Of a stretch of 64,000 bases of DNA, positions 1,613-64,000 are shown in pieces. The notes below the pieces were generated by a model. It worked only from the letters and a program-made list of their open reading frames with translations, did no database searches and was not told the origin of the DNA. Each line of letters begins with the position of its first letter. Positions within the stretch are counted from its first letter, which is position 1. Position numbers and translations under genes: made by a program. Source of the stretch: Malacoraja senta (taxonomy: Eukaryota); assembly GCA_038087875.1 (NCBI GenBank), contig CM075993.1, forward strand, positions 5,706,001 to 5,770,000, written 5' to 3'.

Positions 1613-2134
1613 ATTGTAGTGTGGGAGCGCCTTTCCTGTGTCAACCCCTATCTTACTATCTTAGACTGATTCTCACTCACTCTCACTCACTCATACTCAC
1701 TCACTCACTCACTCTCACTCACTCACCACCCACTCGCCCACTCACACAGAAAGGATCCCCAGTCAGTTCAATACCTCTCAGATCATAATATTGCAGAGCG
1801 TGGAGGTTGGCTTAAAGATATTTAATTAATCCCACTCTTTGGTTTTTCCCCCCGAGCCTTGTCATTACTTCCCCTTAATTTGTAATCCAATTTGCTTTAT
1901 AAATCTGCTCACTGTCCTTTCCTGACATTTATTCCAGACTAAAGCAAGTCGCTATTTAAAATTGTGTTTTATCATCTAGTTCTAAAAGAGCTAATGGGTC
2001 AGGCATTGCATCTAATTACTGGTCCTTCCATCACCGACATTAACCTTGTCAGTCTTGCCTTGATAACCCCATGTGCAATCAGGAGGCCTGACGTGGTGAT
2101 CTATATACTGTGATCTGGATGGTGCTTACAGTCA

Positions 2135-2900
2135 GAGTCATTGAGCTGTACAGCATGGAATCAGACCACGGCCCACCTTCGGCCCACCTTGTCCATGCCG
2201 ACCAAGTTGGGCATGTTGGGCCGGCCCCATTTGCCCCCATCTCAACCCTTCCTATCCATATATCTGTCCAAATATCCTCTCCCATCTGTCCAAAGTCGTA
2301 AATGTATCCACTTCTGTACAGCATGGAATCAGGCCCTTCGGCCCACCTTGTCCATGCTGACCAAGTTGGCATTCTGGATTGGTCCTGTTTGTCTGCATCT
2401 GTCCAAAGATCTTTATAAAAACATTATTTTATCCACATCTATACCTTCCTCTAGCAGCTCATTCCCCATATAGACTAGCCTCTGTGTGAAAAAGTTGCTC
2501 CTGGGGTCCCTCTTAAACTCTCCCCTCTCATCTTTAGCCTACGCTCTTTAGTTTTAGAACTAGATGCAGACTACTCTCGGGGTGAAAACATTGCTCCCGA
2601 GGTCCCTCTTCAAACTGTCCTCTCGCTTTATCCTCTTTCTACCTTCCTCGCCCATCAGAATTAGTCTGAAGAAGGGTCCCGACCCGAAACCTCCCCAATC
2701 CATGCTCTCCAGAATTATTCCAGCACCCTGTGAACTTAAATCTCCCCCTTTCAGCTCGAGTCTATGGCCTGTAGTTTCAGAATCCTCTCCTTTGGAGGGG
2801 AAAGATTGTGAGCGTTCACTTTATCCGTGCCCCCTCACGATCTTGTACCCCTCAGTAAGGTCACCCCTAACCTCCTACTCTCCAGAGAAAAAAAGTCGCA
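2135..2900 (-). mobile_element. Degraded CR1 3' fragments with an HE1-type tail
   Basis: Repeated CAGGCCCTTCGGCCCA..GTCCATGC(C/T)GACC tail and CR1-like body. Confidence 0.6.
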
Positions 2901-3253
2901 GCCTCACGGGTTCGATCCTGACCACGGGCGCTGTCTGTACCGAGTTTGTACCTTCTCCCCGTGACCCGCGTGGGTTTTCTCCGGGAGATCCGGTTTCCTC
3001 CCGCACTCCAAAGTTGTACAGGTCTGTAGGTTAATTGGCTTGGTGTAAATGTTAAACTGTCCCTGGAGTCAAGAGTGTTTTCTTGTCGTCTGTCCCAGAT
3101 AGAACAATGACATTCTTACTTGCTGCAGCACAACAGAATATGGAAACATAACACACTGAAAACAAAATGATAAATGAGAGAGAAAGAAAAAAGTCCAGTG
3201 TGTATACATACACATACTCACAAGTACACACACACATATTATAATATATATGT

Positions 3254-3497
3254 GTTTAAGAAGGAACTGCAGATGCTGGAAAATCGAAGGTACACAAAAA
3301 TGCTGGAGAAACTCAGCGGGTGCAGCAGCATCTATGGAGCGAAGGAAATAGGCAACGTTTCGGGCCGAAACCCTTCCGGGTTTCGTCCCGAAACGTTGCC
3401 TATTTCCTTCCGGGTTTCAGCCCGAAACGTTGCCTATTTCCTTCGCTCCATAGATGCTGCTGCACCCGCTGAGTTTCTCCAGCATTTTTGTGTACCA
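3254..3497. mobile_element. Penelope-derived palindromic element
   Basis: Long inverted repeat; flanked by TATAATATATATGT at 3240-3253 and 3498-3511. Confidence 0.85.
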
Positions 3498-3586
3498 TAT
3501 AATATATATGTATATGCGTGTGTGTATATATATATATATATATGTGTGTGTGTGGGTGTGTGTGTATATATATATATATGTGTGTG

Positions 3587-3619
<33 letters not shown>

Positions 3620-3632
3620 ATATATATATATA

Positions 3633-3692
<60 letters not shown>

Positions 3693-3694
3693 AT

Positions 3695-3752
<58 letters not shown>

Positions 3753-3753
3753 C

Positions 3754-3841
<88 letters not shown>

Positions 3842-3862
3842 TAGATAGATAGATATACATAC
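3498..3862. repeat. Compound microsatellite (TA)n/(TG)n/(GATA)n/(GACA)n
   Basis: Directly visible. Confidence 0.97.
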
Positions 3863-4114
3863 ATACTCAAAAAACAAACAATAGTGTGTGTAGGATAGTA
3901 TTAGTGTGCGGGGATTGCTACTCAGTGGGCCGAAGGGCCTGTTTCTATGCTATATCTCTAAACTAAACAAACTAAACTAGACTCTACCAAACCAAATCAA
4001 ACCAAAACTAAACTATCCAACCTGTCCCTATAACCCGAGCCCAGGCAAGGTCCTCGTGAATCTCTCCCTAGTTGTGGCCGCTTGTCTGATGCTGTGTACT
4101 TGCTGCCACTTCAG

Positions 4115-7100
4115 GTGACGGAGCTGCTGAGCAGCGCTGAAGCCGAGGCCAAGGCTTGCATCACCATCTGCCACCCTGGCGAGGGAGACTGGAGCAACCT
4201 CAAGCAGCACAACCTCCAGGGATTCATCCACATCAAGCTGAACCCAGCGGCCACACTGCCGGAGATGGACGGGGTCTCAGAGTTCACCGAGTACCTGACC
4301 GAGTCGGTGGAGGTGCCCTCGCCCTTCGACCTGCTGGAACCCCCCACCTCGGGGGGCTTCCTCAAGCTGTCCAAGCCATGCTGCTACATCTTCCCCGGCG
4401 GCAGGGGGGACTCCGCGCTCTTCGCCGTCAACGGCTTCAACATCCTGGTGGACGGCGGCTCGGAGAGGAGGTCGTGCTTCTGGAAGCTGGTCCGCCACTT
4501 GGACAGGATCGACTCCATCCTCCTGACGCACATCGGGGCGGACAACCTGCCCGGCATTAACGGGCTGCTCCAGAGGAAGATCGCGGAGCAAGACGAGGAA
4601 CAGTCGCAAGGCTCCACCACGTACAGTGACTGGATCAAGAACCTGATCTCCCCGGAGCTGGGAGTGGTCTTTTTCAATGTGCCCGAGAAACTAAAAATGC
4701 AGGAATCCTCTATGAAGGTCAAGCGGAGCATTGAAGAAGCTTGCCTGTCGCTACAGTACTTGACTAAGCTGGGAATCAAAGCCGAGCCCCTCAACAGGGT
4801 CGTCGGGGCCACTATTGACCCCATCTCACTGTTCCACAAAATGGGCGTTGGCCGATTGGACATGTACATCCTCAACCCAGTCAAAGACAGCAAGGAAATG
4901 CAGTTCCTGATGCAAAAGTGGGCAGGGAACAGCAAAGCCAAGACTGGCATCCTCCTGCCCAACGGCAAAGAGGGCGAGATTTCCGTCCCGTACCTGACGT
5001 CCATCACGGCCCTGGTGGTGTGGCACCCTGCCAACCCTTCCGAGAAGATAGTCCGGGTCTTGTTCCCAGGCAACGCTCCGCAGAACAAGATCCTGGAAGG
5101 GCTGGAGAAGCTGAAGCACCTGGATTTTCTCAAGTACCCCGTGGCTACGCAGAAGGACCTGGCTGGAGGCATCACCCCGCCCGCGGTGAAGCAGACGAAA
5201 GTGCGGCAGAGGACCGACAGCAAGGAGAGCCTGAAGTCCTCGCCCAAGCCCGCTGCGCCCAAGGCAGCGAGGAAGGAGGAGGCAGCCGAAGAAACAACAG
5301 TAAAGCACCCCGAGGTTAAGACGGAGGCGTTGAGAGAGAACAAGTTGGAGAAGAAAGAGGAGAAGAAGGCGAAGTCGGAGGTGGAGAAAGCCGCGATGGA
5401 CGCCGTTAAAACGGAAAAGAAAAAGCTGGCCAAGGAGAAGACGGTGAAAAAGCACGCCAAGGACAAGCTGGCAAAGTCGGAGGAGAAGAAGGACAAGGAG
5501 AAAAAAGAGATCAAGAAGGAAAAGAAGGAGGTGAAGAAGGAGGATGTGAAAAAAGAAGAGAAGAAGGAAGTTAAGAAAGATGAGAAGAAGAAGGAGGCCA
5601 AGAAGGAACCGAAGAAGCTGTTCAAAGCTGACTTGAAGCCTTTCACTCCTGAAGTCAGGAAAACTCTACACAAAGCCAAGGCACCAGGCAAGAAATCAGA
5701 CTCGGCCAAAAGCAAAGTGGCTAAAGAGGCGGTGGAGCCAAAGAGTGAGCCAAAGCTGGCCAAGAAACTCCCTGCAGAGCCCACCACGGTTCAGTTACAG
5801 GTGGAGAGATCTGTCATGTCATCACCAGAGGATCTGTCCAAGGACTTTGCGCAGCTGCGGACTGAAGAGGCGGCCAGGGTTGCAGAGCCCCCCCATCGCC
5901 CCGGCGAGACAGAGGAGATCGCCGCGGTAACGGCAGCGGAGGGAAGACCACCGGAGCTGCCCGACGTTGGTCCTCAGCAGGGGGAGACCCCTGAACCTCC
6001 CGCTTCTGACGCCAAACCCTCTCCCGAAGCTCCGGGCGGAGGGATAATCCCACCAGCCGCGGAGGACATCCCACCTCTCGAGGAGCAGGTGGTTCTCCAG
6101 CCTGAGCCCTCGATGGAGAAGGTTCTAGAAGATGAGGGTGCCGCGTTGGAGGAGTCCCTGGAAATGAGTGAGTTGGAAGAAAAGGTGGTGAGGACAGGGA
6201 AGGAGGAGGAAGGATTTGCTCAGGATGGACTAGAAACCCCACGGGATGAAGTGGGTGAGGAATATCCGTCTGAAGAGCAAGTAGGACTTCCTGAAGGATT
6301 GGGAAAAGAGGTCGGACGGAAGGAGGAAGAGGAGGAAATGGAGAAATGTGAGAGATACATTGAATCAATGGAGACGAGGGAGCAGAATGAGGAAAGCGAG
6401 GATGAAGAGGTGGTTGAGAAGGCAGAGCTGGAGGAAACAGTGGAAGGTGTTGATGAAGATAAGAAGGTGAAAGCCAAGGAAAAGGAAGACGCATTCTACG
6501 ATGAGCCAAAAGTCACGATACCCCCCAGTGAGAAACAAGACAAGGACTTACTCCAGCGTGAGTCGCTTGCAGCTGTGGAGAAGCAAACTCCAACACCGGA
6601 AGCCAAAGTGGCGAAGACCAAGGAAGAGTCGATGCCAACACCTGTGTTGCCCACTCCTGGCGCGGTGGGCGAGCCCATCTCCTACATCCAGGACGAGACC
6701 ATCCCCGGCTATTCGGAGACGGAGCAAACTATTTCCGACGAAGAGATACACGACGAGCAAGAGGACCACATGTCCCACCTGAAATACGAGGTGGACACCT
6801 TCAACATCTCCGTGCCGGACGACACCAGGTCCTTCGATGCCGTCCACGGGATGAAGGAGATCAGAGCCATGGCGGGGGCCGAGATGGCGGCCAAGGGCTT
6901 TGTGAGGATGGAGCCCGAAATAGTGGTCTACCCCTCGGAGATGGCCGCGGCTCCACTGGCTGAGGAGGAGCACATCTCCTCAGCGGCTTCCATCACCGAG
7001 TGCGATAAGCTGTCTTCCTTCGCCACCTCCGTGGCCGAGGACCAGTCGGTGGCCTCGGTGACGGCGCCTCAGACCGAGGAGACCGGGAAGAGTTCCCTGA

Positions 7101-10100
7101 TGCTGGACACTGTCAACAGCATGGCTTCCTCCAGGACAGAGGCCACCCAGGGCAGGGATTACATCCCGTCAGCGGGCACCATCTCCCCAACATCCTCCCT
7201 GGAGGAGGACAAGTACTTCAAGTCCCCGCCTTCCGAGGACTTCCGCCCCATTGCCGGAGCGGTTGCGAAGATGGGGGAGTGGGAGGAAGAAGAAGAAGAG
7301 GAGGAGGAGGAGGAGGATGAGGACCAGACGCCCAATGTTGAGATCCCCACTAAACTCAAAGAACAATACACGGCCATGTTCCCAGAAATGGGCACGCCGG
7401 CACCCTTACTAGCGGATGAGTTTACCGCTTACGACCAAACCACGGACCTTCAGGGCATGGACAACAAGCCCAAGCATTCCTTGCACTTCGAGGCTGACTT
7501 GCCGGAAAGCAACGAGAAGTGTATCAGCCCCGACGAAAGCACGGTGAAAATGGCCTCGCCAACGCAGTCGGGACCCACCAGCGCCGGGCACACGCCGTTC
7601 CACCAGTCGCCCGTCGAGGAGAGGACCGACTCCGTGGAGACGGAACTGGAGGACCAGGCTACACAGGAGGCATCACTCTTCACCGAGGAGCCACTTCGAA
7701 GCGAAGACTTGTCAAGTTCGGGGCTAAGCCCACTTGGTGACCTCCCACCCAAGCCTGTCTCCCAGGGTGAACTCGCCCTGCACTCTGACGTCTACCAGCC
7801 TGGCCTGACTTCAAAAGAGGACATGATGCACTCTCCGGAGTTCCGAGCGATTGAGAAGATGGAGCAAGATGCACACGAAACGGAACACACTGCAACTGAG
7901 AAGATGAAGAGGGACATTCAGGACTGGAAGTCTGCCCTGGCTAAGGCAGAGATACCCGAGGAGACACAGCCAGCCGCTGAAAAGGTTAGGGAAGAGTTCC
8001 TCAAGGAGAAAGAGGACATTGGAAAGATGGAAAAAGAACCAGCAAAGAAATCTGCAACTCCTGAAGTCGTCCCAGAATCGAAACCCACAAAAGATGAAAC
8101 GTTGTCTTTGGACGTTCTCAAGCAAGAACCCGCATCTATCGAAAAGACGGGCAAAGAGGAACCGTCCACCGTTCCCGACAAAATGACGAAAGAAAGTCCG
8201 GAGAAACAACCTGCAGCCGCTGAAATAGTCGAGCAAAAGACGATCTCTCTTGACGAGGCAAAGAGCAAGGAGGAAGACCTGGGGAAGATCTCGCTTGACG
8301 TGGGAAAGAGTGAGAAAGTGAGAAGTGGGAAAGATGATTTGGACAAGAGACCTGGCGACGTTGGAAGCATTGAACGAGAAATATCCGACAAGAAGTCCAT
8401 CGACGATAATAAAGTTGAGCAGAAAGAATTGGAGAAGGTCTCTCTCGAGGTTGGCACCTGTGAGAAGGTGGAATTGGAGCACAAGGCTTTCGAAGCTGAG
8501 CACATGGAAAAAGATTTGCAGAGAAGAGCTGGAGATACTGACAAAATTGTACACGAGGAATTGGAGAAAATGTCAACTGATGTTGGAAAGAGTAAGAAGG
8601 AGGAATTGAAGAAGGAGGAATTGGAAAAGGAAGTCTCCATTCACCATGGAGAGGAGGATAACAAGGAATTAAAGTCAACGCCTTTTGGCGTTGAACACCT
8701 GGAAAAGATTGACCATGAGTTGACAGAGAAGAAATCTATGGATGCTGGAAAATCCAAACCTGAGGAATTAGAAAAAATATCTATTGATTTTGGCAAGAGT
8801 GAGAAAGAGGATATGGAAAAGGCACCTGGAGACGTCAGAAAGGTTGAACAAGAAATGCAGGAGAAGTCTATTAATGACGGTAAAACTGAAGACAAGGAAT
8901 TGGAAAAGATGTCCATGGATATCGGAAAGAGTGAGAAGACAGAAAATGAGAAGAAGGATTTGGAAAAGATACCTGGAGATGTTGTGAAGGTTGATGAAGA
9001 GGCACCAGTGAAGAAGCCTGTTGGTGATGGAAAGATAGGACATGAAGAGTTAGAGAAGGTTCCTGTGGATGTTGGCAAGAGTGAGAGAGAGGATTTGGAA
9101 AAGGGAACTGAAGGTGTTGGGACGGTTGCACAAGAGACACCAGTGAAGAAGTCTAGCGATGATACTAAGATGGAAGACAAGCATTCAGAGAAAATCTCCA
9201 TAGATGTTGACACAAGTAAGAAAGTGGAAAGTGAGAAAGAAGACTTGAAAAAAAGCCCTGGAGTTGTGGAAAAAACTGAACAGGAGGTCTCGGAGAAGAA
9301 AACTATTGGTGATACTAAGATCGAACGCAAGGCATTGGAGAAGACCTGTCCGGCTGTTGGAAGGATTGAACAGGAGGAGCTGGAACAGGAATCGATCGAC
9401 ATTGAAAAGGTATCGAAACAGGTCGCAGTGGGTGAAAGCGGAAAGAAAATTGAGGACGTTGAAAAGATGGATCAGGAACTTCCAGAGAAAAATGCTGAAC
9501 GGAAGGAAATGGACATCTTGCAGTCAAAGCCTGCAGATATGTTGGAAAGTGGCATCGTGGCTTCTGGGAAAACGGAACAAGGTCCAGAAAAGAGACCTGC
9601 AGGTGTGGAGAAGATGGAAAAGTTTCTACTGGAAATGGAACGGACAACAGGAAAAGTGGACAAGGACATAGAACAAAAGGTTTCTGTGGAATCGAAGGAC
9701 ATGCAAGAGAAACTGCAATCTATCACCCAGAAAATCTCCAGTGGTGATTCGGAAAAGGGCTATGCAGCAACCGAAGATGTCCATATTACATGTGGCTACT
9801 TGCCAATTGTTACATCAGATACATACATCAGTGAGATAGAAGACAAATTAAAAGATCAAGCAGGAAAAATAGCAGAGGCAATCTATTCATCAGAAGATGA
9901 AGATCTATCTGATATTATAGAGCTAATGCCAACCACAGGGAAGTTCTCAAAGCCAATAAACGAAGAAGAACTTTCAAAGCAGCCGATCTCTAAAGACGTG
10001 ACCCCAACTGACAGTAAGGGCAAAGCAAGTCCCGTGGAGTTAAAAGAGACCAATGTCCTCAACAACTTGTCGCCATCTCTGTATCCAACGTGCGAGCCTG

Positions 10101-13100
10101 TGGCAGATGTTTCCACGGGTGGAATGAAGCCGAAGGAACAAGTAACGGATGAAGCAGAGTCCGTTCGCAGGCCGGAAGGCATGGCCGGCAAACTAGACAT
10201 AGGGGAACCCCCACACACCAGCCCCACTGGGGATCGAGTATCTCCTTCAGAGGCAGAGGGGCTTTCCAGAAGTGGAGTGATTGCCGACACACAGCCTCCG
10301 GTCGATTACAGCAAATGGGATCCATCTTCCTACCAATATTACTTGCAAGAGGATACCAAAGTTATTACCGCTCTGTCCCACACGCCATCTCCAGAGGACC
10401 TGCCGAGTGAAATATTTATGGCAGCGGATCGACTAGCCGGGAGCAAGGACAAGGAGACGGGCAGTGAGGCCAAGTATTCTTACTACACAGAGGAGAGGAA
10501 GGAGTCTACTGGAGGGTTTGACTATTCTTGGAGCGTTGAGCAAGGGAGCGAGTGGCCCATGCCTGCCTCCGATGGTGCCTTTGACAAAGCCTTTGAGTCA
10601 AAGCCTTCGGCCACGTCTCTCCCACATCCCGAGGACTCGTGGACCGCAGGGAAGTCCACCACAGTGGGGACAATTCTCAGCGCATCCAAAGAATCAGCTG
10701 GAGAGCAGGACGTAAAGATGTTGGAAGGACTTCGCGGGGAAATCCCGAGAGAAGAGGAGAGGAGTTTCCAAGAACGTGCGTACGTTCCCCCAGAGGGGAG
10801 TGTGCCCGCTGACGTACTGAGAGAAAGCACGGGCCTGACTTATGGGAAGGTCTTCACGTCTGATGAATACATCTTCAGCCGGTCAACTCCTTCTCCGACC
10901 GACGAACAAGACGTTCCTCTCACGCAGCTGGACTACCACGCTGCGATCTACTCAGAGGCTAAGTGGAGTGGCACTGGGCTTCACACCGAGGACTCCCACA
11001 CCACCGTGAGGAAAGGATATTCCTCGACGGAGGGAGTCAAGGACTTCGACGCTGGGATGAAGGCGTTCAGTTGCACCGAGGTGGACAAGAAGAGCACGGT
11101 CTCAGGCCTCGAGGACCTCTGCGAGTCACAGAAGGAGATCGAGCCTCGGGGCTTCCACCACCTATCGCGGCAGCTGGACTCACCGTTCGAAGTGGCGTGG
11201 GAGGCCAAGGAGACCGAGAGAGAACCTTCCCTCCACATGTCACCGATAGAGAAGGAGCCCTCCTGGTCCAGCGCCCTTGGACCCGTGCCCTCAACACATG
11301 TGACACCCGGTGAGCAGGAAGCAAGGACAGACGGGACAACGGGATACTCCGTAATCCCAGAACCTCCTACGACTCTCCCCCCGACCTCCAGAGATGTCCC
11401 GGCCACCTCTACGTGGTCGGACGCCAAGGGCAAGCAGCATTCCGGACCGACACTGGAGCACAGCTTGGGCGAAGATATCCAGGCGGACTCCCTCAGCCCC
11501 GTCTCACCGGATGGGAGGAAGACATCGGGTCTCAGCAGCCCCGAGTCCAAAGACAGCCTGTCGCCCTCGCTGCCCCACGCGGTGACGCCGCGGCTGGACG
11601 CCAACGTGTTTGGGATCGGCGCGGCGAGGCAGAACGAGCCCGACTCCAACATCCTGAGCTACTACCAGAAGGAAGCGGAGGAGAGCAGCAGCGACTCGGA
11701 GCTGGAGAAAGGCGCCAAGGAAAAGTCGGAGAAGGAATCCCCGGCCGGGCAGTGGGACACGGGGAAAGCTCAGAGCCTCGGAGCGGGAGCAGAGGGGCGA
11801 GCACGCGCCGTGTCCCCGTGGCCGGAGCAGTGGCTGGAGGAGAGACATCGGGAGCAGAGCCCGGCCGAATCGGAGAAGGACCGCACCTCGCCCGGCCAGC
11901 TGGAGCGCGACCTCCCTTGTCCCAGTGATCACAAGGACGATCTGCGGAGTTCTCCCTATGGACTTGACTACCCCTGCAGGAGAGATGAGGAGATGACCTT
12001 CACCACCGGGGAGTGGTCTACCACGGGTCAACTGGAGGGCACGGGGAGAGAGGAGGAGCAGAGACCCAGCAAAGACCCGCACCAAGAGGGGCCGGTCAAG
12101 CTGCCATGCCCTGACTCGGACGTCCCGACCCAGGAGGTCCCACCAACCACCCAGGGGCTCCCGACTGCCCATCCAGAGCACTTTGACCACTCCTTCACCA
12201 CCAAGGAGGCCGAGCCCTCTGGTGCTCAGTTTAAATACTCTTCCCGCAGCGAGGAGAGAACATTCGCTGCCCCTCTCCCACCTGAGGCCACAGGGGTGAA
12301 GGACGAATATTTGGAAGTATCTCAGCAAGGGGCACCCTCCCTGACCACCGGCTCCTCCACTGCGGCCCCGGCGCGGAGTCTTGTCGAGGTGTCGCCGCTG
12401 GTTCCCGCCGACGAGGCACCGTGCCAGGCAGCCGAGACGGAAGAGCCGGCCCAGGCCCCCGCCGAGCACAGCCCAGGCTACCTGTGCGACATCGAGGACT
12501 CCACCTTGTCCTGCAGGGTCGAGTGTCAAAGGTCGTCCCCCAAAACCGAAGGGGAGGGGACAGGGACAGCTGTCGAGGGGGTGAAGGTCGTACCGGGGGC
12601 AGAGGAGGCCCAGGCCTCGGGCCTACTGCCCTCGCTCTCAGGCCCTGAGGTGGCATCGGCCAATGGGCCTGCCGAAACAGGCTTCGCCTCAGCGCCGGCC
12701 CGGAGCCCACCAGGGAGGGACAAGGCCTCGGGCGTTGCCGCGGAGACGGGAACCCCTGCCCGGCCTTCTTCGATCGCCTCGCAGGAGCGGGGTTCACCCT
12801 GGCCCTCCAAGGACGATCTGTCGCCCTCCTTCATCAACCCCAGTCCCCAGCCGGAGTTGGAAGAGGGGCCGGTGGAAGAGAGCGGCCCCCAGAGCCGGCC
12901 TCGCGCGCCCCGGCAACCGCGGGGGGCCCAGGACAGCCCGCCCACCTCCGGCAGCGAGTCTCCCCCCCTCAACTCTGACTCCGACGTGCCCCCAGAGACG
13001 GAGGACTGCCCCTCCATCACGGCCGAGGCGCCCATCGACTCGGACGAAGACGGAGACGTCCTGCCCGTCGACAAGAGCAGCGGCCTCGGCCCGGACCCCC

Positions 13101-13508
13101 TGCCCGCCCCAGCCGCGGACCCCCAGCCCCTCCCCCCTCGCCCAGACGTCTGCATGGTGGACCCCGAGGTGCTGGGCCTCGAACCGGTCAAGCCGCTGAA
13201 GAAGGAGATGAAGGACAAGGCCAAGGGCGCCCGCAAAACGGCCAAGTCCAAGGCGGCCTCGCCGGGCCGCAAGCTGGACCCCAAGACCAAGCACCCCGCC
13301 AAGCCTGCCTCGCCCAAGGACACCAGCGAGAGGTCCCCCAAAGCAGCCTCCACCAAGAAGAAGGAGAGGGAGGCGGCGGAGAAACCCAGCCGGGCCTCCA
13401 GGTCCAGCGAGACTCAGGCATCGCGGGGCGAGGACAGGGATGACATCTCCAGGTCAAGCCAACCCAACCCAGGCAAGGCCCTGGTCAACGGCATCAAGCC
13501 TTCCTCAG
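4115..13508 (+). CDS. MAP1A: MAP1A giant internal exon (9,394 nt): conserved N-terminal domain, KKE-type microtubule-binding repeats, acidic projection region, start of light chain LC2
   Basis: Lies in the 3186-aa ORF. Acceptor TTCAG|GTG at 4114/4115; donor TCAG|GTAAGG at 13508/13509 (phase 1). MAP1A-type motifs: MQKWAGNSKAKTGI, DLKPFTPEVRKTL, SYIQDETIPGYSETEQTISDEEIHDE, SITECDKLSSFATSVAEDQSVAS, DSDVPPETEDCPSITAE, PPRPDVCMVDPE. Confidence 0.97.
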
Positions 13509-13625
13509 GTAAGGACCTGCCGGGTGCAACTCGAGCTAGCGTCTATACCGTCCCTCGAATCTTCCTTAAGGTCAAAGTACTCCACGCGGTCACGGTGGGT
13601 CGAATCTTGGGCATCAACTCTCAAA

Positions 13626-13925
13626 GAGTGGCTCAGTGGTAGACTTGCTGCCTTGCAGCGCCAGAGACCAGGTTCGATCCTGACCACGAGTGCTGTCTGT
13701 ACGGAGTTTGCACGTTCTCCCTGTGATCGCGTGGGTTTTCTCCAGGTGCTCCCGTTTCCTCCCACACTCCAAAGACGAACAGGTTTGTAGGTTAATTGGC
13801 TTTGGTAAAATTCCAAATTGCCCCTTGTGTGTAGGGTAGTGCTAGTGTACAGGTTGATTGCTGGTCGGCACGGACTCTGTGGGCCGAAGGGACCGTTTCC
13901 GCACTGTATCTCTAAAGTCTAAAGT
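13626..13925 (+). mobile_element. HE1/V-SINE-like tRNA-derived SINE
   Basis: A-box TGGCTCAGTGG, B-box GGTTCGATCC, core and CR1-type tail. Confidence 0.85.
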
Positions 13926-14114
13926 CCTAAAGTGCACACTGCAGCCACGATGCTGGTGGAGGCAGTGAATGTGCAGAGATGATCCATAATCCATTTATTG
14001 CCACATGTTCTGGAACGGAACAATGACATTGTTACAGCAGCAGCAGCAGCATAACAGAATATGTAAACTTTGTCAATATTCTGTACACAATGCATTAAAC
14101 GAGAAAAACATTCT

Positions 14115-14396
14115 GTGTATGTGTATATACACATATGTGTGTATATGTGTGTATAAATATACATACACGCCTATACATATATATACACACTGACGTTTTA
14201 TCTCATTTAATATATTGTTTACAGAGTACTTACTATGTTTACATATTCTACTATTTTGCAGTATGTGCACATATATATGTGTGTGTGTGTGTATATACAT
14301 GTGTGTGTGTATATATGTGTGTGTATATATATGTGTGTGTGTATATATATGTGTGTGTATATATATATATATGTGTGTGTGTGTATAGATATACTG

Positions 14397-14441
<45 letters not shown>

Positions 14442-14445
14442 GTGT

Positions 14446-14519
<74 letters not shown>

Positions 14520-14538
14520 CTGTATGTGTGTATACAGG

Positions 14539-14603
<65 letters not shown>

Positions 14604-14622
14604 CTGTATGTGTGTATACAGG

Positions 14623-14653
<31 letters not shown>

Positions 14654-14745
14654 ATATATATATGTGTGTATATATATATATATGTGTGTATGTGTGTATA
14701 TACACACATCTATACATTACATACACAAAAACACACACACACACA
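14115..14745. repeat. Compound (TA)n/(TG)n microsatellite with a higher-order unit
   Basis: GTATCTGTATGTGTGTATACAGG recurs at about 14516 and 14600. Confidence 0.95.
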
Positions 14746-14759
14746 AACAATAATATATG

Positions 14760-15183
14760 GGTAGACAATAATGCTGGAGAAACTCAGCGTGTGAGGCAGC
14801 ATGTATGGAGCGAAGGTATAGGTGACGTTTCGGGACAAGACCCTTATTCAGACTGATGTGGGGGGGGGGGGGCGGGAAGAAGAAAGGAAGAGGCGGAAAG
14901 CAAGGGTCTTGACCCGAAACGTCGCCTATTCCTTCTCTCCATAGATGCTGCCTCACCCGCTGAATTTCCCCAGTATTTTTGTCTACCTTCAATTTTTCCA
15001 GCATCTGCAGTTCTTTCTTCAACATAATGTATGGGTGATGTTTCGGGTCGAGACCATTCTTCAGTCCCTTCGAGTCTCGACCCGAAACGTCACCCATTCC
15101 TTCTCTCCGGAGATGCTGCCTGTCCCGCTGAGCTACTCCAGCACTTTGTGTCTATCTTCGGAGCATCTGCAGTTCCTTCCTGA
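14760..15183. mobile_element. Cluster of Penelope-derived palindromic segments
   Basis: Same arms as the other copies, with several CCCGAAACGTC motifs on both strands. Confidence 0.75.
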
Positions 15184-15761
15184 GCAATAACGAAAGTTGA
15201 CTCGTGTGAGTCGAGAGCGTTTTATTGTCATATGCCCCGAAAGGGAACAATGCCATTCTTACTTGCAGCAGCACAACAGCCATGTATCACCAGTGGAGAT
15301 CAGGTAAACACCAACATAATCTTGCAAATTCTTAAACAGTAACAAGCGCCCATTGTACCATTTATCTGTTGCAGACTCTGCCTGACATCTCTCTTTGTTT
15401 ACTCAGTGTGATGAAACAATTGTGTCTGTCCCCACTCAGAACTGGGATAGAGCAGCAACCCTTCTCCCCATGCTGGTCAGATGTCCCACAAACACAGCCT
15501 CTGGCTCAGCACTCCGTCCAATTTACTTATTTTTCAAAGCACGCGTCGCTGTCTTTTGAAAAAAAAAAAAGGCCCTTTGTTCAGGGAGTCGGCACGGAGT
15601 CGTGGCCGTGGTGAAGTGAAAGGAAGCCCTCTGCGATAGCACTTCCCACACAGAGCCAGCCTGAGATCTTTAACCCTCTTTCCCCTCAAGAAGCCCGTGG
15701 ACTCCTAGTCAAGTGGGGTCAAGGCCGAGTTTTTGTGATGCTGGAGAAAGGTGTTGAGTAA

Positions 15762-16384
15762 AGGGCCTGTCCCACTTGGCCGTCATTTACGTGACAGGCC
15801 GGTAGTGACGGTCCCGCGCGTCATCATGCGTCCGCACAGCCGTCTGGAGCGCGTGACATCATTTGAAGATGGACCCAAAATGCTGGAGTAACTCAGCGGG
15901 ACCGGCAGCACCTCTGGGGAGAAGGGATGGATGATGTTTCGGGTCGAGACTCTTCTTCAGTCCGATGAAGGGTCTCGACCCGAAATGTCACCCATTGCTT
16001 CTCTCCAGAGATGCTGCCGGTCCCGCTGAGTTACTCCTGCATTTTGTGTCTATCTCCAATCATCTTGGCTGGGCTGTGGGAGTAGGAGTGGGGGGCGGAT
16101 CCGGATCCGCAACGGCCGTGAGCCCCAGGCCGAGCTCGGCGATCGCTTGCCTGCTTCTGCTGCTGTTGGAGGTGAGAGATTGTGTCGCGCCAGGGTCTTG
16201 GGCCTGTCCCACTTTGGCCGTCAGTTACACGACAGGCCGGTGGCGCGCGAAGATTTCATGCTGGACGAAGTCCACACTCCGCCACGCCACTCCATGCGCC
16301 CGTCCCCGCGCTACCCACGTGCTACCCACACGCTAGCAGGTCGCGTAAATGGCGCGCGAATGACGCCCAAGTGGGACAGGCCCT
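15762..16384. mobile_element. Composite Harbinger-type MITE carrying a Penelope hairpin
   Basis: TIR AGGGCCTGTCCCACTTGG; flanks TAA/TTA; internal third TIR near 16200; reverse-complement copy at 56324-56934. Confidence 0.82.
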
Positions 16385-16460
16385 TTACACTTCAGCCGTG
16401 AGCAAGCAGTTCCCTGGGTCAATTGGCCACCTCTTCTGGGATGGAATCATAGAATAGTTC

Positions 16461-16766
16461 ATTTAGTTTAGTTTAGAGATACAGCGCGGAAACAGGCCCT
16501 TGGGCCCACCGCGTCCACGCCGAACAGCGATCCCCGCACATTAACACTATCCTACACGCACTAGGTACGATTTACAGTTACACCAAGCCAATTAACCTGC
16601 AAACCTGTACGTCTTTGGAGTATGGGAGGAAACCGGAGATCTCGGAGAAAACCCACGCAGGTCACGGGGAGAACGTGCAAACTCTGTACAGACAGCACCC
16701 GTAGTTAGGGTTGAACCCGGGTCTCTGGCGCTGTGAGGTAGCAACTCAACCGCTGCGCCACCACGC
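16461..16766 (-). mobile_element. HE1/V-SINE-like SINE
   Basis: Reverse complement of the same head, core and (CTAAA)n tail. Confidence 0.85.
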
Positions 16767-16871
16767 CCAACGTGGGCGAGAGGAGACCCAAACTGTGCCA
16801 CCGTTGCTCACTCCCTCGTTGGCGAGGAGTCCGTGGGTCACGTTGACGCTAACCTCTGCCTCTCTCACCAG

Positions 16872-26349: not shown

Positions 26350-27690
26350 AGTCATATTTATTTATATAGCACATTTAAAAAACAACTCTCGTTGGCCAAA
26401 GTGCTTTACATTTGTTATAAGAATAATAGAAACATAGAAACATAGAAACATAGAAATTAGGTGCAGGAGTAGGCCATTCGGCCCTTCGAGCCTGCACCGC
26501 CATTCAATATGATCATGGCTGATCATCCAACTCAGTATCCCGTACCTGCCTTCTCTCCATACCCCCTGATCCCTTTAGCCACAAGGACTGCCAATCACAC
26601 CCCCCCCCCCCTGACACTCCTCCCACCAGGATTTATTAGATTAGATTTATTTATTTACTGCTCATATTTATGTCGCTCTTCTAGGGAGATGCTAACTACA
26701 TTTCGTTGTCTCTGTACTGTACACTGCACAATGACAATAAAGTTGAATCTGATCTGAATCTAACTCCCTCTTAAATATAGCCAATGAACTGGCCTCGACT
26801 ACCCGCTGTGGCAGAGAGTTCCAGAGATTCACCACTCTCTGTGTGAAAAAAGTTCTTCTCATCTCGGTTTTAAAGGATTTCCCCCTTATCCTTAAGCCGT
26901 GACCCCTTGTCCTGGACTTCCCCAACATCGGGAGCAATCTTCCTGCATCTAGCCTGTCCAACCCCTTAAGAATTTTGTAAGTTTCTATAAGATCCCCTCT
27001 CAATCTCCTAAATTCTAGAGAGTATAAACCAAGTCTATCCAGTCTTTCTTCATAAGACAGTCCTGACATCCCAGGAATCAGTCTGGTGAACCTTCTCTGC
27101 ACTCCCTCTATGGCAATAATGTCCTTCCTCAGATTTGGAGACCAAACTGTACGCAATACTCCAGGTGTGATCTCACCAAGACCCTGTACAACTGCGAACA
27201 AACAAACTACATACATATATACATATAGCCCTCGCTCAGAGGACGTCAACAAAGGCTTGGGAGTAGAGAAGAGTTTTTAGTCTCGACTTAAAGGAGTCGA
27301 TGGAGCGGGCAGTTCTGATGGGAAGGGGGATGCTGTTCCACAGTCTAGGAGCTGGAACCGCAAAGGCGCGGTCGCCCCTGAGCTTATGCCTAGACCGCGG
27401 GATATTCAGCAACCCCAAGTCGGCCGATCTGAGGGACCTGGAGGTGGAGTGGTGGGTGAGAAGACTTTTAATGTAGGTGGGGGCAAGCCCATTGAGGGCT
27501 TTGTGGACATGGAGGAGGATCTTGAAATGTGTACGGAACCGCACAGGGAGCCAGTGGAGAGAGGCCAGGATCGGGGTGATGTGGTCCCTTTTTCGGGTGC
27601 CCGTCAGGAGTCTCGCTGCGGCGTTTTGGACCAGTTGCAGGCGGGACAGGGAAGATTGGCTGATGCCAGTGTTTAGGGAGTTGCAGTAAT
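26350..27690 (-). mobile_element. L2-type LINE fragment interrupted by a CR1 fragment (about 26429-27193), itself interrupted by a + strand Rex1-like tail (about 26586-26757)
   Basis: L2: FKILLHVHKALNGLAPTYI..RSLRS..GDRAFAVPAPRLWNSIP. CR1: EGVQRRFTRLIPG..RRLRGDLIETYKIL. Confidence 0.82.
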
Positions 27691-27809
27691 CTTGTCACGT
27701 GTACCGAGGTACAGTGAAAAGCTTTTTGCTGCGTGCTATCCAGTCAGCAGAAAGACAATACATGATTACAATCGAGCCATTCACAGTGTACAGATACACG
27801 GTAAGGGAA

Positions 27810-28600: not shown

Positions 28601-28644
28601 GGCATCTCTGATGGCCTGCGCTGGTTTTGAGGCCAACCCCTTCA

Positions 28645-29031
28645 ACATAGAAACATAGAAAATAGGTACAGGAATAGGCCATTTGGCCCTTCGAGCCTGC
28701 ACCGCCATTCAATGTGATCATGGCTGATCATCCAACTCAGTATCCCATCCCTACCTTCTTTCCATACCCCCTGATCCCTTTAGCCACAAGGGCCACATCT
28801 AACTCGCTCTTAAATATAGCCAATGAACTGGCCTCAACTACTTTCTGTGGCAGAGAATTCCACAGATTCACCACTCGCTGTGTGAAACAAAATCTTCTCA
28901 TCTCGGTCGTAAAAGACTTCCCCCTTATCCTTAAACTGTGACCCCTTGTTCTGGACTTCCCCAACATCGGGAACAATCTTCCTGCATCTAGCCTGTCCAA
29001 CCCCTGAAGAATTTTGTAAGTTTCTATAAGA
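28645..29031 (-). mobile_element. CR1 LINE 3' fragment
   Basis: LIETYKILQGLD..RVVNLWNSLP; (TTTCTATG)n tail. Confidence 0.87.
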
Positions 29032-29092
29032 TATTTCCCTACATAAAGCACAGCACAGAAAAAGACACTTTGCTGTTCTATGTTAAAAAAAA

Positions 29093-32890: not shown

Positions 32891-33642
32891 TCATAGAAAC
32901 ATAGACAATAGGTGCTGGAGTAGGCCATTCGGCCCTTCGAGCCCGCACCGCCATTCAATATGATCATGGCTGATCATCCAACTCAGTATCCTGTACCTGC
33001 CTTCTCTCCATACCCCCTGATCCCTTTAGCCACAAGGGCCACATCTAACTCCCTCTTAAATATAGCCAATGAACTGGCCTCAACTACCTTCTGTGGCAGA
33101 GAATTCCACAGATTCACCACTCTCTGTGTGAAAAATGATTTTCTCATCTCGGTCCTAAAAGACTTCCCCCTTATCCTTAAACTGTGACCCCTTGTTCTGG
33201 ACTTCCCCAACATCGGGAACAATCTTCCTGCATCTAGCCTGTCCAACCCCTTAAGAATTTTGTACGTTTCTATAAGATCCCCCCTCAATCTTCTAAATTC
33301 TAGCGAGTACAAGCCGAGTCTATCCAGTCTTTCTTCATATGAAAGTCCTGCCATCCCAGGAATCAGTCCGGTGAACCTTTTCTGTACTCCCTCTATGGCA
33401 AGAATGTCTTTCCTCAGATTTGGTGACCAAAACTGTACGCAATACTCCAGGTGTGGCCTCACCAAGACCCTGTACAACTGCAGTAGACCTCCCTGCTCTT
33501 ATACTCAAATCCTTTTGCTATGAATGCTAACATACCATTCGCTTTCTTCACTGCCTGCTGCACCTGCATGCCTACTTTCAATGACTGGTGTACCATGACA
33601 CCCAGATCTCGTTGCATCTCCCCTTTTCCTAATCGGCCACCA
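32891..33642 (-). mobile_element. CR1 LINE 3' fragment, relatively young
   Basis: QRDLGVMVHQSLK..KKANGMLAFI and LVRPHLEYCVQFWSP..RRLRGDLIETYKIL. Confidence 0.9.
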
Positions 33643-44315: not shown

Positions 44316-44621
44316 AGGGCCTGTCCCACTTATTCAATTTTTTCCGCGACTTGCCGGCACCCGTCATAGTTGCAGCAGGTCGCCGAAAATTTTCAATATG
44401 TTGAAAATCCAGTGGCGACCAGAAAAAGGTACGACTCTTTGGGTGACTACTCAAGACCAAACAGGCATCACCCCGTGACATGTAGCGGGGGTGACGCATG
44501 TATGGTCATGAGCAGTCGCCCAAAGAGTCGTACCTTTTTCTGGTCGCCGCTGGATTTTCAACGTTTCGAAAATTTTCGGCGGCAAGTCACTGAAAAAAAG
44601 TGCGTAAGTGGGACAGGCCCT
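44316..44621. mobile_element. Harbinger-type MITE, internal type B
   Basis: TIR AGGGCCTGTCCCACTTA; TAA/TAA flanks; long internal inverted repeats. Confidence 0.82.
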
Positions 44622-44731
44622 TAAAGACCTACTTTTTCAGTTTAGTTTATTGTTACGTGTACCGAGGTACAGTGTAATGACGCCATGCTTAATGCCTCCA
44701 CTGTTGTCCCAGCTATGACCTGCCAACTTAA

Positions 44732-45048
44732 TGGGCCTGTCCCACTGTAAGAGCTCACTCAAGAGCTCTCCCGAATTTAAAAAAAAAATCTAACTCGTAG
44801 AAGCACGTAGAATGTACGTAGCGGGTACGTCGGAGCTCGGGACGTCTCTTAGCGGCTCGTAAAGCTAACGTCAAGTACTTGGGAAACGCGGTAAGCTCAG
44901 GAAGACTCGTGAAGATTTTTCAACATGTTGAAAAATGACCACAAGAGCCCCGAGTACCTACGAGCGGCCATTAACGTAAATCTCCGAGTTCGAATCAGGG
45001 CAAACTCGGGAGAACTCTTGAATGAACTCGTACAGTGGGACAGGGCCA
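44732..45048. mobile_element. Harbinger-type MITE, internal type C
   Basis: Imperfect TIR of about 40 bp starting TGG(G/C)CCTGTCCCACTGTA; inverted copy at 50914-51223. Confidence 0.8.
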
Positions 45049-47304: not shown

Positions 47305-47513
47305 AGGGCCTGTCCCACTTGGGCGTCGTTTGCGCGTCACGCAGATGGCGCGCAAAGATTTTGTACATCCCAAAATCCTGGGGCTCGTAGTGACGTAGGC
47401 CGTGCGCGACCGCCTACGTCACCATGCACCATGTGCGCATCACATGCACGTCACGCGCTCGCGTTGTGACACGTAAATGATGTTGCGTAAATGACGCCCA
47501 AATGGGACAGGCC
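47305..47513. mobile_element. Harbinger-type MITE, short and CpG-rich
   Basis: GGCCTGTCCCACTTGGGCGTC..GACGCCCAAATGGGACAGGCC; the right flank is degraded. Confidence 0.75.
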
Positions 47514-47864
47514 AAGGGTTCAGGAGGTGAGTCACAATCCATTTTAAACGTTGCAATACCACATTTACCAGATTTGTGCAAATCTCACAGGAATTAACAA
47601 TTGCACAGAAGATGCCTTGTTTTCTTGCATCCAGATACTTCTATATTATTTTAATTAAATTAAAGCAAGCAGTCCAAACAGACAGGTACTTTATCAAATA
47701 ATTAAATACTGCAATTAACAAAGACTCAAACCAGTAGATCACTTAATTTGCCCAGGAGAATACAGTGAGTGATGTATGAGTTAATTATGGATAAGTAGAC
47801 AAGCTGCCCTTGCTTGTGATGCCCATATTCCAATCATCTGGATCATATTTGGTCTCACAATTCA

Positions 47865-48580
47865 AGGTTTCAAGATCAGTTTATTGTCACATGTACCAAT
47901 TAAGGCACAGTGAAATTCCAATTACCATACAGCCATACTAAAAAAAAAAGCAACAAGACACACAGCTACCTAAAAGTTAACATAAACATCCACCACAGTG
48001 GATTCCCCACATTCCTCACTATGATGGAAGGCAATAAAGTCCAATCTCCTGCCTCTTTATTCTCCCGCGGTCGGGGCAGTAGAACCATCCGCAGTCGGGG
48101 TGATCGAAGCCCCCGCAGCCGGCGGTCGAAGCCCCCATGTCGGGGTGATCGAAGCTCCCGCGGTGGGGCGGTCGAAAGCTCCTGCAGCTTGGAGTTCCCC
48201 GAAGTCGGTCTCTAACCAGAGACCGCGGGCTCCCCGATGTTAAAGTCCCGCAGGCTCTCACGGTTGGAGCCCCAAAGACGACCCCCGACGGGGATCGCAA
48301 GCTCCGTGATGGTATGTCCTGCAGGCTCGCGCGATGGAGCTCCAGGTCGATCTCCAGCAAAGGCCGCCAACTCCTCGGTGTTAGGCCGCAGTGCGGACAG
48401 AGATACGATACGGAAATAAATCACATCTCCGTCGAGGTAAGAGATTAGAAAAGGTTTCCAACCCCTCCCCCACATAAAACAAGCTCAAGAACACAAAAAA
48501 ACATATTTAACACATACAAAACAGACACAAAGGAAAGGACAGACAGACTGTAGGCGAGGCAGCCATTGCCGGCGCCAGCA
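47865..48580 (-). mobile_element. GC-rich non-coding interspersed repeat with a Rex1-like tail
   Basis: Its 5' region of about 250 nt is similar to 59675-59900; internal tandem GATCGAAGC(C/T)CCC repeats; tail GTGACAATAAAC. Confidence 0.6.
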
Positions 48581-56323: not shown

Positions 56324-56934
56324 AGGGCCTGTCCCACTTGGCCGTCATTCGCGCGCCATTTACGTGACCTGCTAGCGTGTGGGTAGCGGGTGGGTAGCGT
56401 GGGACGGGCGCATGGAGTGGCGTGGAGGAGTGTGGACTTCGTCCTGCACGAAATCTTCACGCACCACCGGCCTGTCGCGTAACTGACGGTCAAAGTGGGA
56501 CAGGCCCAAGACCATGGCGCGGTGAACGTCTCACCTCCAACAGCAGCAGAAGCAGGCGATCGCCGAGCTCGGCCTGGGGCTCACGGCCATTGCGGATCCT
56601 GATCCACCCCCACTCCCAGAGCGGGGCCAAGACTATTGGAGATAGACACAAAATGCTGGAGTAACTCAGCGGGACCGGCAGCATCTCTGGAGAGAAGCAA
56701 TGGGTGACGTTTCGGGTCGAGACCCTTCTTCAGACTGAAGAAGAGTCTCGACCTGAAACATCATCCATTCCTTCTCTCCAGAGATGCTGCCGGTCCCGCT
56801 GAGTTACTCCTGCATTTTGTGTCTATCTTCAAATGACGTCACGCGCTCCAGACAGCTGTGCGGACGCATGATGACGCGCACGACCGTCACTACCAGCCTG
56901 CCGCGTAAATGACGGCCCAAGTGGGACAGGCCTT
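56324..56934. mobile_element. Composite Harbinger-type MITE, second copy in opposite orientation
   Basis: Same TIRs, TTA/TTA flanks, same internal hairpin (about 56640-56830) and internal TIR. Confidence 0.82.
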
Positions 56935-58145: not shown

Positions 58146-58149
58146 TTTA

Positions 58150-58692
58150 GGTAGACAAAAGTGCTGGAAAAACTCAGCGGGTGCAGCAGCATCTATGGAG
58201 CGAAGGAAATAGGCAACGTTTCGGGCCAAAACCCTTCTTCAGACTGATGTAGGGTGGGGGGGCAGGGAGAAGAAAGGAGAAAGGAAGAGGAGCCAGAGGG
58301 CTGAGGGAGAGCTGAGAAGGGGAGGAAATAGCAAGGGCTACCGGAAATTGGAGGTCAATGTTCATACCGCTGGGGTGCAAACTGCCCAAGTGGAATATGA
58401 GGTGCTGCTCCTCCAATTTACGGTCGTCCTCACTCTGGCCATGGAAGAGGCCCAGGACAGAAAGGTCGGATTCGGAATGGGAGGGGGAGTTGAAGTGCTG
58501 AGCCACCGGGAGATCAGGTTGGTTAATGCGGACCGAGCAAGGTGTTCGGCGAAACCATCGCCAAGCCTACGCTTGGTCTCACCGACGTAGATCAGCTGAC
58601 ATCTAGAGCAGCGGATGCAATAGATGAGATTGGAGGAGGTGCAGGTGAACCTCTGTCGCACCTGGAACGACTGCTTGGGTCCTTGAATGGAG
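58150..58692 (-). mobile_element. Penelope-like element 3' fragment: frameshifted GIY-YIG endonuclease plus 3' terminal region with hammerhead-like motif
   Basis: Translations IQGPKQSFQVRQRFTCTSSNLIYCIRCSRCQLIYVGETKRRLGDGFAEH and AQHFNSPSHSESDLSVLGL..RKLEEQHLIFHLGSLHPSGMNID, followed by CTGAAGAAGGGTTTTGGCCCGAAACGTT and the tail shared with the hairpin elements. Confidence 0.88.
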
Positions 58693-63925: not shown

Positions 63926-64000
63926 AGGGCCTGTCCCACTTGGCCGTCATTTGCACCTCATTTACGCGTCATATGTAAAATAGGTCAACGTCGCACGCAA
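63926..64000. mobile_element. Left end of a Harbinger-type MITE, truncated by the window edge
   Basis: TTA-AGGGCCTGTCCCACTTGGCCGTCATT. Confidence 0.7.

What the first reader, a model, noticed from the sequence alone, without database searches (positions are those of the whole stretch)
15762..16384. A DNA-transposon MITE has captured the ribozyme hairpin and moved it as cargo
Seen: 15762-16384 and 56324-56934 are reverse-complement copies with unrelated flanks. Each has an outer TIR, a Penelope hairpin with back-to-back cores (CTTCTTCAG-A-CTGAAGAAG in the second copy), a GC-rich spacer and a third internal TIR that makes a smaller MITE of about 185 bp at one end. Inference: a class I fragment was captured in a class II element, which then transposed; the three TIRs allow two alternative mobile units.
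Basis: partly seen in the sequence, partly recalled or inferred. Interest (0 to 1): 0.7.

Follow-up and report, generated by a model that had tools for sequence, protein, structure and literature searches.

The report
DNA transposon carrying Penelope ribozyme hairpin
In this skate-like genome, two copies of a short DNA transposon, likely of the PIF/Harbinger type, carry the same folded-back scrap of a Penelope retrotransposon, whose ribozyme motifs are mostly damaged and predicted to be locked shut, so this is likely an ordinary case of one jumping gene riding along inside another.

Summary
Observation confirmed. 15762-16384(+) and 56324-56934(-) are 90% identical, similarity stops at the terminal inverted repeats (TIRs), and both hairpin junctions are the same. 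Five more elements in the window share the TIR; TWA flanks 14 of 15 ends, pointing to a PIF/Harbinger-type MITE family (no transposase found). The hairpin is two head-to-head Penelope pLTR arms with minimal hammerhead motifs; a homologous arm follows a GIY-YIG-like fragment at 58149-58690. Shared rare variants and diverged copies in four organisms show one hairpin that was then copied by DNA transposition. It more likely inserted into the MITE than was picked up with host DNA. Only 1 of 4 cores is intact, and freeing a core costs 33-40 kcal/mol. The third TIR is a duplicate left end without a TWA flank, fixed to the spacer in all four organisms; a free 185-bp unit was not seen. Copy A's flanks are TAA/TTA, not a perfect duplication. 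Penelope cargo in non-autonomous class II elements is already described in Anolis (PMC3014272). New member of a known kind.

The parts
15759..15761 (+). left flank TAA of copy A (target-site triplet)
15762..15864 (+). copy A left end: outer TIR (AGGGCCTGTCCCACTT) plus subterminal segment, ending in CATTT
15865..15960 (-). copy A hairpin left arm: Penelope pLTR fragment, sense on minus strand; min-HHR core with a stem II mismatch and G16.2 changed to A
15962..16057 (+). copy A hairpin right arm: pLTR fragment, min-HHR core 15962-15989 with U4 changed to C and C15.2 to U; no Penelope tail
16058..16198 (+). GC-rich spacer, begins AAT; a high-depth repeat in four organisms, not unique host DNA
16199..16241 (+). 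internal TIR: duplicate of the left end (42 bp, 90%), preceded by TCT, not TWA
16242..16384 (+). right part of the MITE-like module and right outer TIR
16385..16387 (+). right flank TTA of copy A (middle base differs from the left TAA; also read in organism C contigs)
   Evidence: (record 24)
56324..56934 (-). copy B of the whole composite, TSD TAA/TAA; hairpin about 56638-56830, centre 56734; internal TIR starts at 56508
56706..56733 (-). the only core of the four that keeps both catalytic boxes, a 5-bp stem II and the CG palindrome
47305..47515 (+). free 211-bp MITE of the same TIR family whose first 57 bp are 81% like the internal-TIR module; right end damaged
58149..58690 (-). Penelope 3' fragment: GIY-YIG-like frame, 3' UTR, then a min-HHR arm 77% like the composite arm (source family of the hairpin)
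13509..16871 (+). intron of a MAP1A/MAP1B-like gene that hosts copy A

Best explanation
15762-16384 and 56324-56934 are two copies of one roughly 620-bp non-coding element with terminal inverted repeats and TWA flanks, likely a PIF/Harbinger-type MITE, into whose ancestor a head-to-head Penelope pLTR hairpin likely inserted once and was then likely copied as passive cargo. Steps. (1) Shown: a MITE family with this TIR and TWA flanks populates the window and four organisms. (2) Inferred: a Penelope enzyme cut an AT-rich point in one copy (left flank ends CATTT, right flank starts AAT) and wrote two short pLTR copies that joined at the natural TCAG-W-CTGA palindrome overlapping the hammerhead core, giving a 193-bp hairpin like the 11 free ones in the window. 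(3) Shown: that single hairpin copy, with arm-specific changes, now sits in at least two unrelated sites here and in diverged copies in other organisms. (4) Inferred: a trans-acting Harbinger transposase used the two outer ends. (5) Inferred: the internal TIR is a relic left end, probably from a shorter ancestral MITE, that lost its TWA flank and travels as internal sequence. (6) Predicted: the ribozyme motifs do not cleave here, because the antisense arm is always transcribed first and the hairpin buries the core. The family looks old: site A is occupied in at least two other organisms.
For: Homology ends at the TIRs. TWA next to 14 of 15 family ends (background 2.7%); identical TWA on both sides in 4 of 7 two-ended elements, including B. 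Same junctions in A and B; rare variants shared arm by arm: right arms C>G in 0 of 25 other arms, left arms C>T in 1 of 25. Contigs 9-13% different from A cross the hairpin|spacer joint (1 by 31+ letters, 7 more by 16-30) and the spacer|internal TIR joint (12 of 32 listed records, all 4 runs); two organism D contigs carry the right part next to 192 and 85 letters of other flank. Penelope origin: homologous arm directly behind a GIY-YIG-like fragment; descriptor finds 6 min-HHR cores in the window against 0-1 in each of 20 shuffles; head-to-head pLTRs with a junction palindrome and an optional tail are described for Penelope (PMC3846280, PMC8557442 passages); Anolis Poseidon protein cuts and extends both strands at ATT (PMC11167929, section 3). 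Freeing a core costs 33-40 kcal/mol; 1 of 4 cores intact.
Against: No transposase was found, so the superfamily rests on ends and flanks (0 transposase hits in 58 frames; only 36-64 kb and two exons scanned). Copy A has TAA/TTA, not a perfect duplication. No hairpin-less parent was seen: no joint skipping the hairpin among 15 listed of 2271, and no listed contig crosses the left|hairpin joint. The hairpin has no TSD and no tail at either end, whereas 11 of 11 free hairpins have a tail on at least one side. Whole-arm distance does not group A and B cleanly: a free arm at 27901 is closer to B's right arm (3%) than A's is (4%). GIY-YIG scores are below Pfam's cut-off, and Rfam gave no hammerhead family among 57 hits.
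Confidence: 0.7

Rival explanations
1. True capture: a MITE end picked up a stretch of DNA that already held the hairpin (template switch in gap repair, or recombination between elements), as proposed for hobo elements in Anolis.
For: No tail and no TSD at the hairpin; a 7-bp direct repeat (GTCTTGG in B) at both ends of the spacer could mark a template switch; PMC3014272 passages favour incorporation of genomic DNA for hobo_AC.
Against: Both neighbours of the hairpin are repeat-family sequence with very high depth, not unique DNA; both arm ends match tail-less Penelope ends seen in free copies; the insertion point is one of few AT-rich spots.
Confidence: 0.17
2. The internal TIR is a working end, so the 185-bp module and the 620-bp composite are both mobile.
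For: The internal TIR is conserved in both copies and pairs with the right TIR; a free 211-bp relative with an 81%-similar left end exists at 47305-47515.
Against: It is preceded by TCT in both copies; in mPing a changed third base of the flank strongly lowers transposition (PMC4561436 passages); 0 of 32 listed contigs show it next to foreign DNA, 12 show it joined to the spacer; the module's own right part is the lowest-depth part of the element. The 211-bp relative differs in its interior.
Confidence: 0.12
3. The vehicle is a TIR element of another superfamily (TA-duplicating Tc1/mariner-like, TTAA-duplicating Kolobok/piggyBac, or a TSD-less Spy-like element).
For: A and 44732-45048 fit a TA duplication if the TIR is read one base longer; A alone also reads AAA|TTT.
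Against: TA fits 2 of 7 elements, TTAA on both sides 0 of 7, TWA 4 of 7. The TSD rules for Kolobok, piggyBac and Spy are recalled, not from a call.
Confidence: 0.1
4. Segmental duplication, or two independent hairpin insertions into the same spot.
For: The two copies lie only 40 kb apart and inverted; hairpins are very common (13 in the window).
Against: Flanks unrelated; identical junctions and shared arm-specific variants; B has its own TSD.
Confidence: 0.02

Closest known systems
Anolis hobo-N non-autonomous hAT families and Helitron-2N3_AC (PMC3014272, passages read)
   Same: Non-autonomous class II elements in a vertebrate that carry a fixed Penelope/Poseidon fragment and amplified with it.
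   Different: Here the vehicle has TWA flanks and GGGCC-type TIRs (Harbinger-like, not hAT or Helitron), and the cargo is a self-complementary pLTR pair with two hammerhead motifs.
PIF/Harbinger Tourist-like MITEs such as mPing (PMC4561436, PMC3014272 passages)
   Same: Short, non-coding, TIRs of about 15-25 bp, TAA/TTA target duplication, many copies.
   Different: Animal host, internal duplicate of the left end, retroelement cargo; transposase partner not identified; 2 of 7 elements have TAA/TTA mismatched flanks.
Penelope/Poseidon pLTR with minimal hammerhead (PMC4209133 parts 1-2 of 4; PMC3846280, PMC8557442 passages; PMC11167929 section 3)
   Same: CUGANGA box, extra base before stem II, GAAA-C-G-UH with palindromic 15.2/16.2; head-to-head inverted pLTRs with a palindrome at the joint; optional tail; position behind a GIY-YIG frame.
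   Different: No ORF, no tail, no TSD; stem II is 5 bp and helix I only 2 bp; spread here is by the DNA element, not by reverse transcription.
Non-LTR retrozymes (10.64898/2026.07.22.740005, part 1 of 5 and passages)
   Same: Non-autonomous, pLTR-derived, type I hammerhead motifs.
   Different: Retrozymes are tandem direct repeats that allow dimer cleavage; this is an inverted pair that buries the cores.

Membership tests
PIF/Harbinger MITE | TIRs of about 14-25 bp | tested here: met
   25-30 bp inverted match between the ends
PIF/Harbinger MITE | 3-bp TAA/TTA target-site duplication | tested here: met
   B TAA/TAA; 4 of 7 family elements perfect, 2 of 7 (incl. A) TAA/TTA, 1 damaged; TWA at 14 of 15 ends
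PIF/Harbinger MITE | multi-copy, independent flanks, non-coding | tested here: met
   0 Pfam hits in 3 frames over copy B
PIF/Harbinger MITE | autonomous partner with Harbinger transposase and Myb/SANT protein sharing the TIRs | not testable with these tools
   no genome held; 16 pattern hits in metagenome and viral contigs gave no such element
Chapaev3 (also TWA) | TIRs begin with CAC (PMC3014272) | tested here: not met
   ends begin AGGGCC, AAGCCC or TGGGCC
Kolobok / piggyBac | TTAA duplication (recalled) | tested here: not met
   0 of 7 with TTAA on both sides
Penelope pLTR derivative | homology to the repeat behind a GIY-YIG endonuclease frame | tested here: met
   77% over 108 bp to 58149-58255, behind a frame whose relatives score GIY-YIG below cut-off in 4 of 5 cases
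Penelope pLTR derivative | head-to-head inverted pLTRs with a palindrome at the joint | tested here: met
Penelope pLTR derivative | optional 30-40 bp tail or TSD at the insertion | tested here: not met
   neither end has the tail or a TSD; 11 of 11 free hairpins have a tail; both features are optional in PMC3846280
minimal type I hammerhead | CUGANGA and GAAA boxes, stem II, NUH, palindromic 15.2/16.2 | tested here: met
   met by 1 of 4 cores (B, minus strand, 56733); the other three carry damaging changes
minimal type I hammerhead | able to adopt the ribozyme fold in context | tested here: not met
   predicted stem II pair probability below 1e-16; 33-40 kcal/mol penalty; prediction only
minimal type I hammerhead | self-cleavage | not testable with these tools
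   needs an in vitro assay
non-LTR retrozyme | tandem direct repeats each with an intact HHR | tested here: not met
   inverted pair, single unit
independent 185-bp sub-MITE | own TWA duplication or free copies | tested here: inconclusive
   left flank TCT in both copies; 0 of 32 listed contigs show a free left end, but 534,664 records were not shown

The most novel reading that the evidence does not exclude
The cargo is not neutral and the vehicle is modular: a Harbinger-type element with a usable internal end spread hundreds to thousands of near-perfect 96-bp RNA hairpins, some into introns (copy A lies in a MAP1-like intron), where they form double-stranded RNA that is edited or diced and helps silence the parent Penelope family; and the frozen hairpin records two-strand priming with annealing at the hammerhead palindrome, the missing step in how Penelope inverted repeats form.
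Probability: 0.08. Interest if true: 0.55.

Novelty: new member of a known kind. Interest (0 to 1): 0.27.

Why it matters
It is a clean example of a retroelement fragment being re-mobilised by a DNA transposon, so hammerhead and Penelope counts in cartilaginous fish will include copies spread by the wrong class of element, and repeat libraries may mislabel the family. The shared insertion at site A is a usable phylogenetic marker. The concept is not new (Anolis hobo-N and Helitron families), and no host function is shown. The side findings may matter more: very large numbers of Penelope hairpins with varied centres are natural material for testing how Penelope inverted repeats form, and the TAA/TTA mismatched flanks are a testable oddity of this TIR family.

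Tried and rejected
No whole genome is held, so the genome-wide count was not possible. Rfam scan of the window: 57 hits at E up to 1, none a hammerhead family; the microRNA hits reflect generic hairpins. Family TIR pattern in metagenome contigs: 0; shorter pattern: 14 metagenome and 2 viral loci, none with more than 32 bp of similarity or an inward-facing second TIR, treated as chance. Earlier findings: nothing by sequence, words or place. TIR strings in papers: 125 papers, the 25 listed are unrelated to transposons. Searches for a skate Harbinger MITE or a hammerhead-bearing MITE gave no direct description in the listings; Repbase and Dfam could not be searched, so the family may already be catalogued, and no supplementary files were opened. 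Pfam on 58 frames (56 of 69 candidates from 36-64 kb plus two exons): no transposase. PDB search with P0001: 0. The RT domain in P0005 looks like a fused gene model and was not used as a Penelope link. Read depth is not a copy number and is used only as a rough order. Rejected: segmental duplication, TTAA and CAC-type superfamilies, retrozyme.

Full report
Observation. The two stretches are real inverted copies: 90.3% over 632 columns, or 46 mismatches in 610 aligned columns with 22 CpG-type transitions. Similarity stops at the outer TIRs; 300-bp flanks score only 18, and the one higher score within 1 kb is a free repeat arm at unrelated offsets. Each copy has, in order, a left end of about 100 bp, a 193-bp hairpin, a 141-bp GC-rich spacer, an internal TIR and a right part ending in the outer TIR. 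The hairpin folds at -163 and -176 kcal/mol, z -22 and -25 against 200 shuffles. Copy A lies in an intron (13509-16871) of a MAP1A/MAP1B-like gene. The closest named relatives of a retroelement frame in the window are little skate proteins, so the host is skate-like.

The vehicle. The same TIR bounds five further two-ended elements (44316-44621, 44732-45048, 47305-47515, 50914-51223, 55294-55503) and one cut by the window end (63926). TAA or TTA lies next to 14 of 15 ends, against 2.7% background. Four of 7 elements, B among them, have the same triplet on both sides; A and 44732-45048 have TAA left and TTA right; one has a damaged right end. A's TTA is also in organism C's contigs (record 24), so it is not an assembly slip. 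TIR length and TAA/TTA duplication match the PIF/Harbinger description in PMC3014272 (passages) and mPing (PMC4561436 passages). TTAA fits 0 of 7, TA 2 of 7, and the CAC start of Chapaev3 none. No transposase was found, so membership is likely, not proven.

The cargo. At 58690-58149 on the minus strand a frame with a weak GIY-YIG match (E 0.02, below cut-off) is followed by a 3' UTR and one arm of the same repeat (77% over 108 bp). Five database relatives of that frame were found; 4 of 5 score GIY-YIG below cut-off, and P0002 has an RYIDD motif upstream (its meaning as an RT motif is recalled). A minimal-hammerhead descriptor hits 6 places in the window, including this arm and B's minus-strand core, against 0-1 in each of 20 shuffles. 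The motif has the features listed in PMC4209133 (parts 1-2 of 4): an extra base before stem II, G10.1-C11.1, palindromic 15.2/16.2. Rfam has no match to it. The arms point outwards from a TCAG-W-CTGA centre, the head-to-head form with a junction palindrome described for Penelope (PMC3846280 and PMC8557442 passages). An anchor scan finds 13 such arm pairs in the window, 2 in the composite and 11 free; by my reading of the printed flanks all 11 free ones have the optional tail on at least one side, the composite on neither.

One hairpin, then transposition. A and B have the same two junctions. Their right arms share a C>G seen in 0 of 25 other arms, their left arms a C>T seen in 1 of 25, plus commoner shared changes. 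Whole-arm distance is less clear, since a free arm at 27901 is nearer to B's right arm than A's is. Fourteen of 23 listed runs, from seven coded organisms, hold half or more of the element's words; I laid 4 of them. Organism C is identical to the window's flanks and is not independent. Of 32 listed contigs (534,664 not shown), one crosses the hairpin|spacer joint by 31 or more letters and seven more by 16-30; twelve, three per run, cross the spacer|internal TIR joint; they differ from A by about 9-13%. Two organism D contigs carry the right part next to other flanks. None listed crosses the left|hairpin joint, and no hairpin-skipping joint is among 15 listed of 2271, so a hairpin-less parent was neither seen nor excluded. 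Site A is occupied in other organisms: an organism A contig bridges the right junction (32 letters inside, 9 differences), and an organism D contig runs from the left flank 19 letters into the TIR (16 differences; short of the tool's 31-letter rule). The insertion therefore likely predates those splits. Summed depth, which is no copy number, divided by single-copy depth in organism C gives 9,000-12,000 for the left part, 3,900 for the junction bin, 19,000-42,000 for the spacer, 2,000-8,000 for the right part and 70,000-990,000 for the hairpin. Read only as an order, the composite is a minor route of spread for the hairpin, and the spacer with its internal TIR belongs to a larger family; six listed contigs stop at 16250-16257, which suggests other right halves.

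Insertion or capture. Both neighbours of the hairpin are family repeat, not unique DNA, both arm ends look like tail-less Penelope ends, and the site is AT-rich (CATTT left, AAT right) in a 63-65% GC element. Anolis Poseidon protein cuts and extends both strands, preferring ATT (PMC11167929 section 3). I therefore infer a direct Penelope insertion into a MITE copy, with two short cDNAs annealing at the core palindrome; self-priming, as proposed in PMC3846280, would give the same product. Capture by template switching stays possible: there is no TSD or tail, and a 7-bp repeat flanks the spacer in B.

The third TIR. It matches the left end over 42 bp at 90% but the right end over only about 24 bp, and it is preceded by TCT in both copies. 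In mPing, changing the third base of the flank strongly lowers transposition. A free 211-bp relative shares its first 57 bp at 81% but not its interior. The best reading is a relic left end of a shorter ancestral MITE. A second mobile unit is not shown.

Ribozyme. One of four cores is intact. A's right core has U4 changed to C and C15.2 to U; both left cores have a stem II mismatch and G16.2 changed to A. On either strand the antisense arm comes first, and forcing the ribozyme fold costs 33-40 kcal/mol. Metazoan minimal hammerheads cleave weakly and as dimers or need the element's protein. Activity here is predicted to be nil; it was not measured.

Comparison and verdict. Non-autonomous class II families with a fixed Penelope or Poseidon fragment are described in Anolis (hobo-N, Helitron-2N3). 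I found no paper on this skate family or on a hammerhead hairpin in a MITE (listings), but repeat libraries and supplements were not seen. It is not a retrozyme. The finding is real and the core inference holds, but it is a new member of a known kind, with no function shown. Interest 0.27.

Noticed in passing
window 15759-16387 and 44729-45051: Two of seven elements of this TIR family have TAA on the left and TTA on the right, a mismatch at exactly the middle base; more than a few percent divergence should give, and unexplained.
   Followed up: partly
window 301-41575, 11 sites: Free Penelope hairpins of two subfamilies with different centres, several at natural micro-palindromes of the pLTR; all carry the 30-40 bp tail on at least one side.
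   Followed up: partly
window 58149-58690 (-): Penelope 3' fragment with broken GIY-YIG-like frame, 3' UTR and a minimal hammerhead arm.
   Followed up: yes
window 44316-44621: 306-bp MITE with the same TIR whose interior is itself a 202-bp palindrome; it lies 110 bp from another family member at 44732-45048, which has an 84% sister at 50914-51223.
   Followed up: partly
window 4034-13508, 16872-, 18740 region (+): MAP1A/MAP1B-like gene with a very large exon (Pfam MBL_MAP1B E 4e-149) and two downstream light-chain exons; copy A is in its intron.
   Followed up: partly
window 16455-16770 (-) and about six other sites: A very abundant ~300-bp repeat ending in TAAAC-type repeats, SINE-like (label recalled); many joints link it to hairpin and MITE ends.
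   Followed up: no
window 26358-27694, 28644-29032, 32892-33481, 49749-50193: LINE 3' fragments (CR1/L2-like by translation, label recalled), 92-94% identical between some copies.
   Followed up: no
window 47914-48577 and 59661-60361: Another inverted pair of a ~700-bp repeat, 67% identical, not classified.
   Followed up: no
window 63926-64000: Left end of a further family member, cut by the window end, with tandem subterminal CGTCATTT-like motifs.
   Followed up: no
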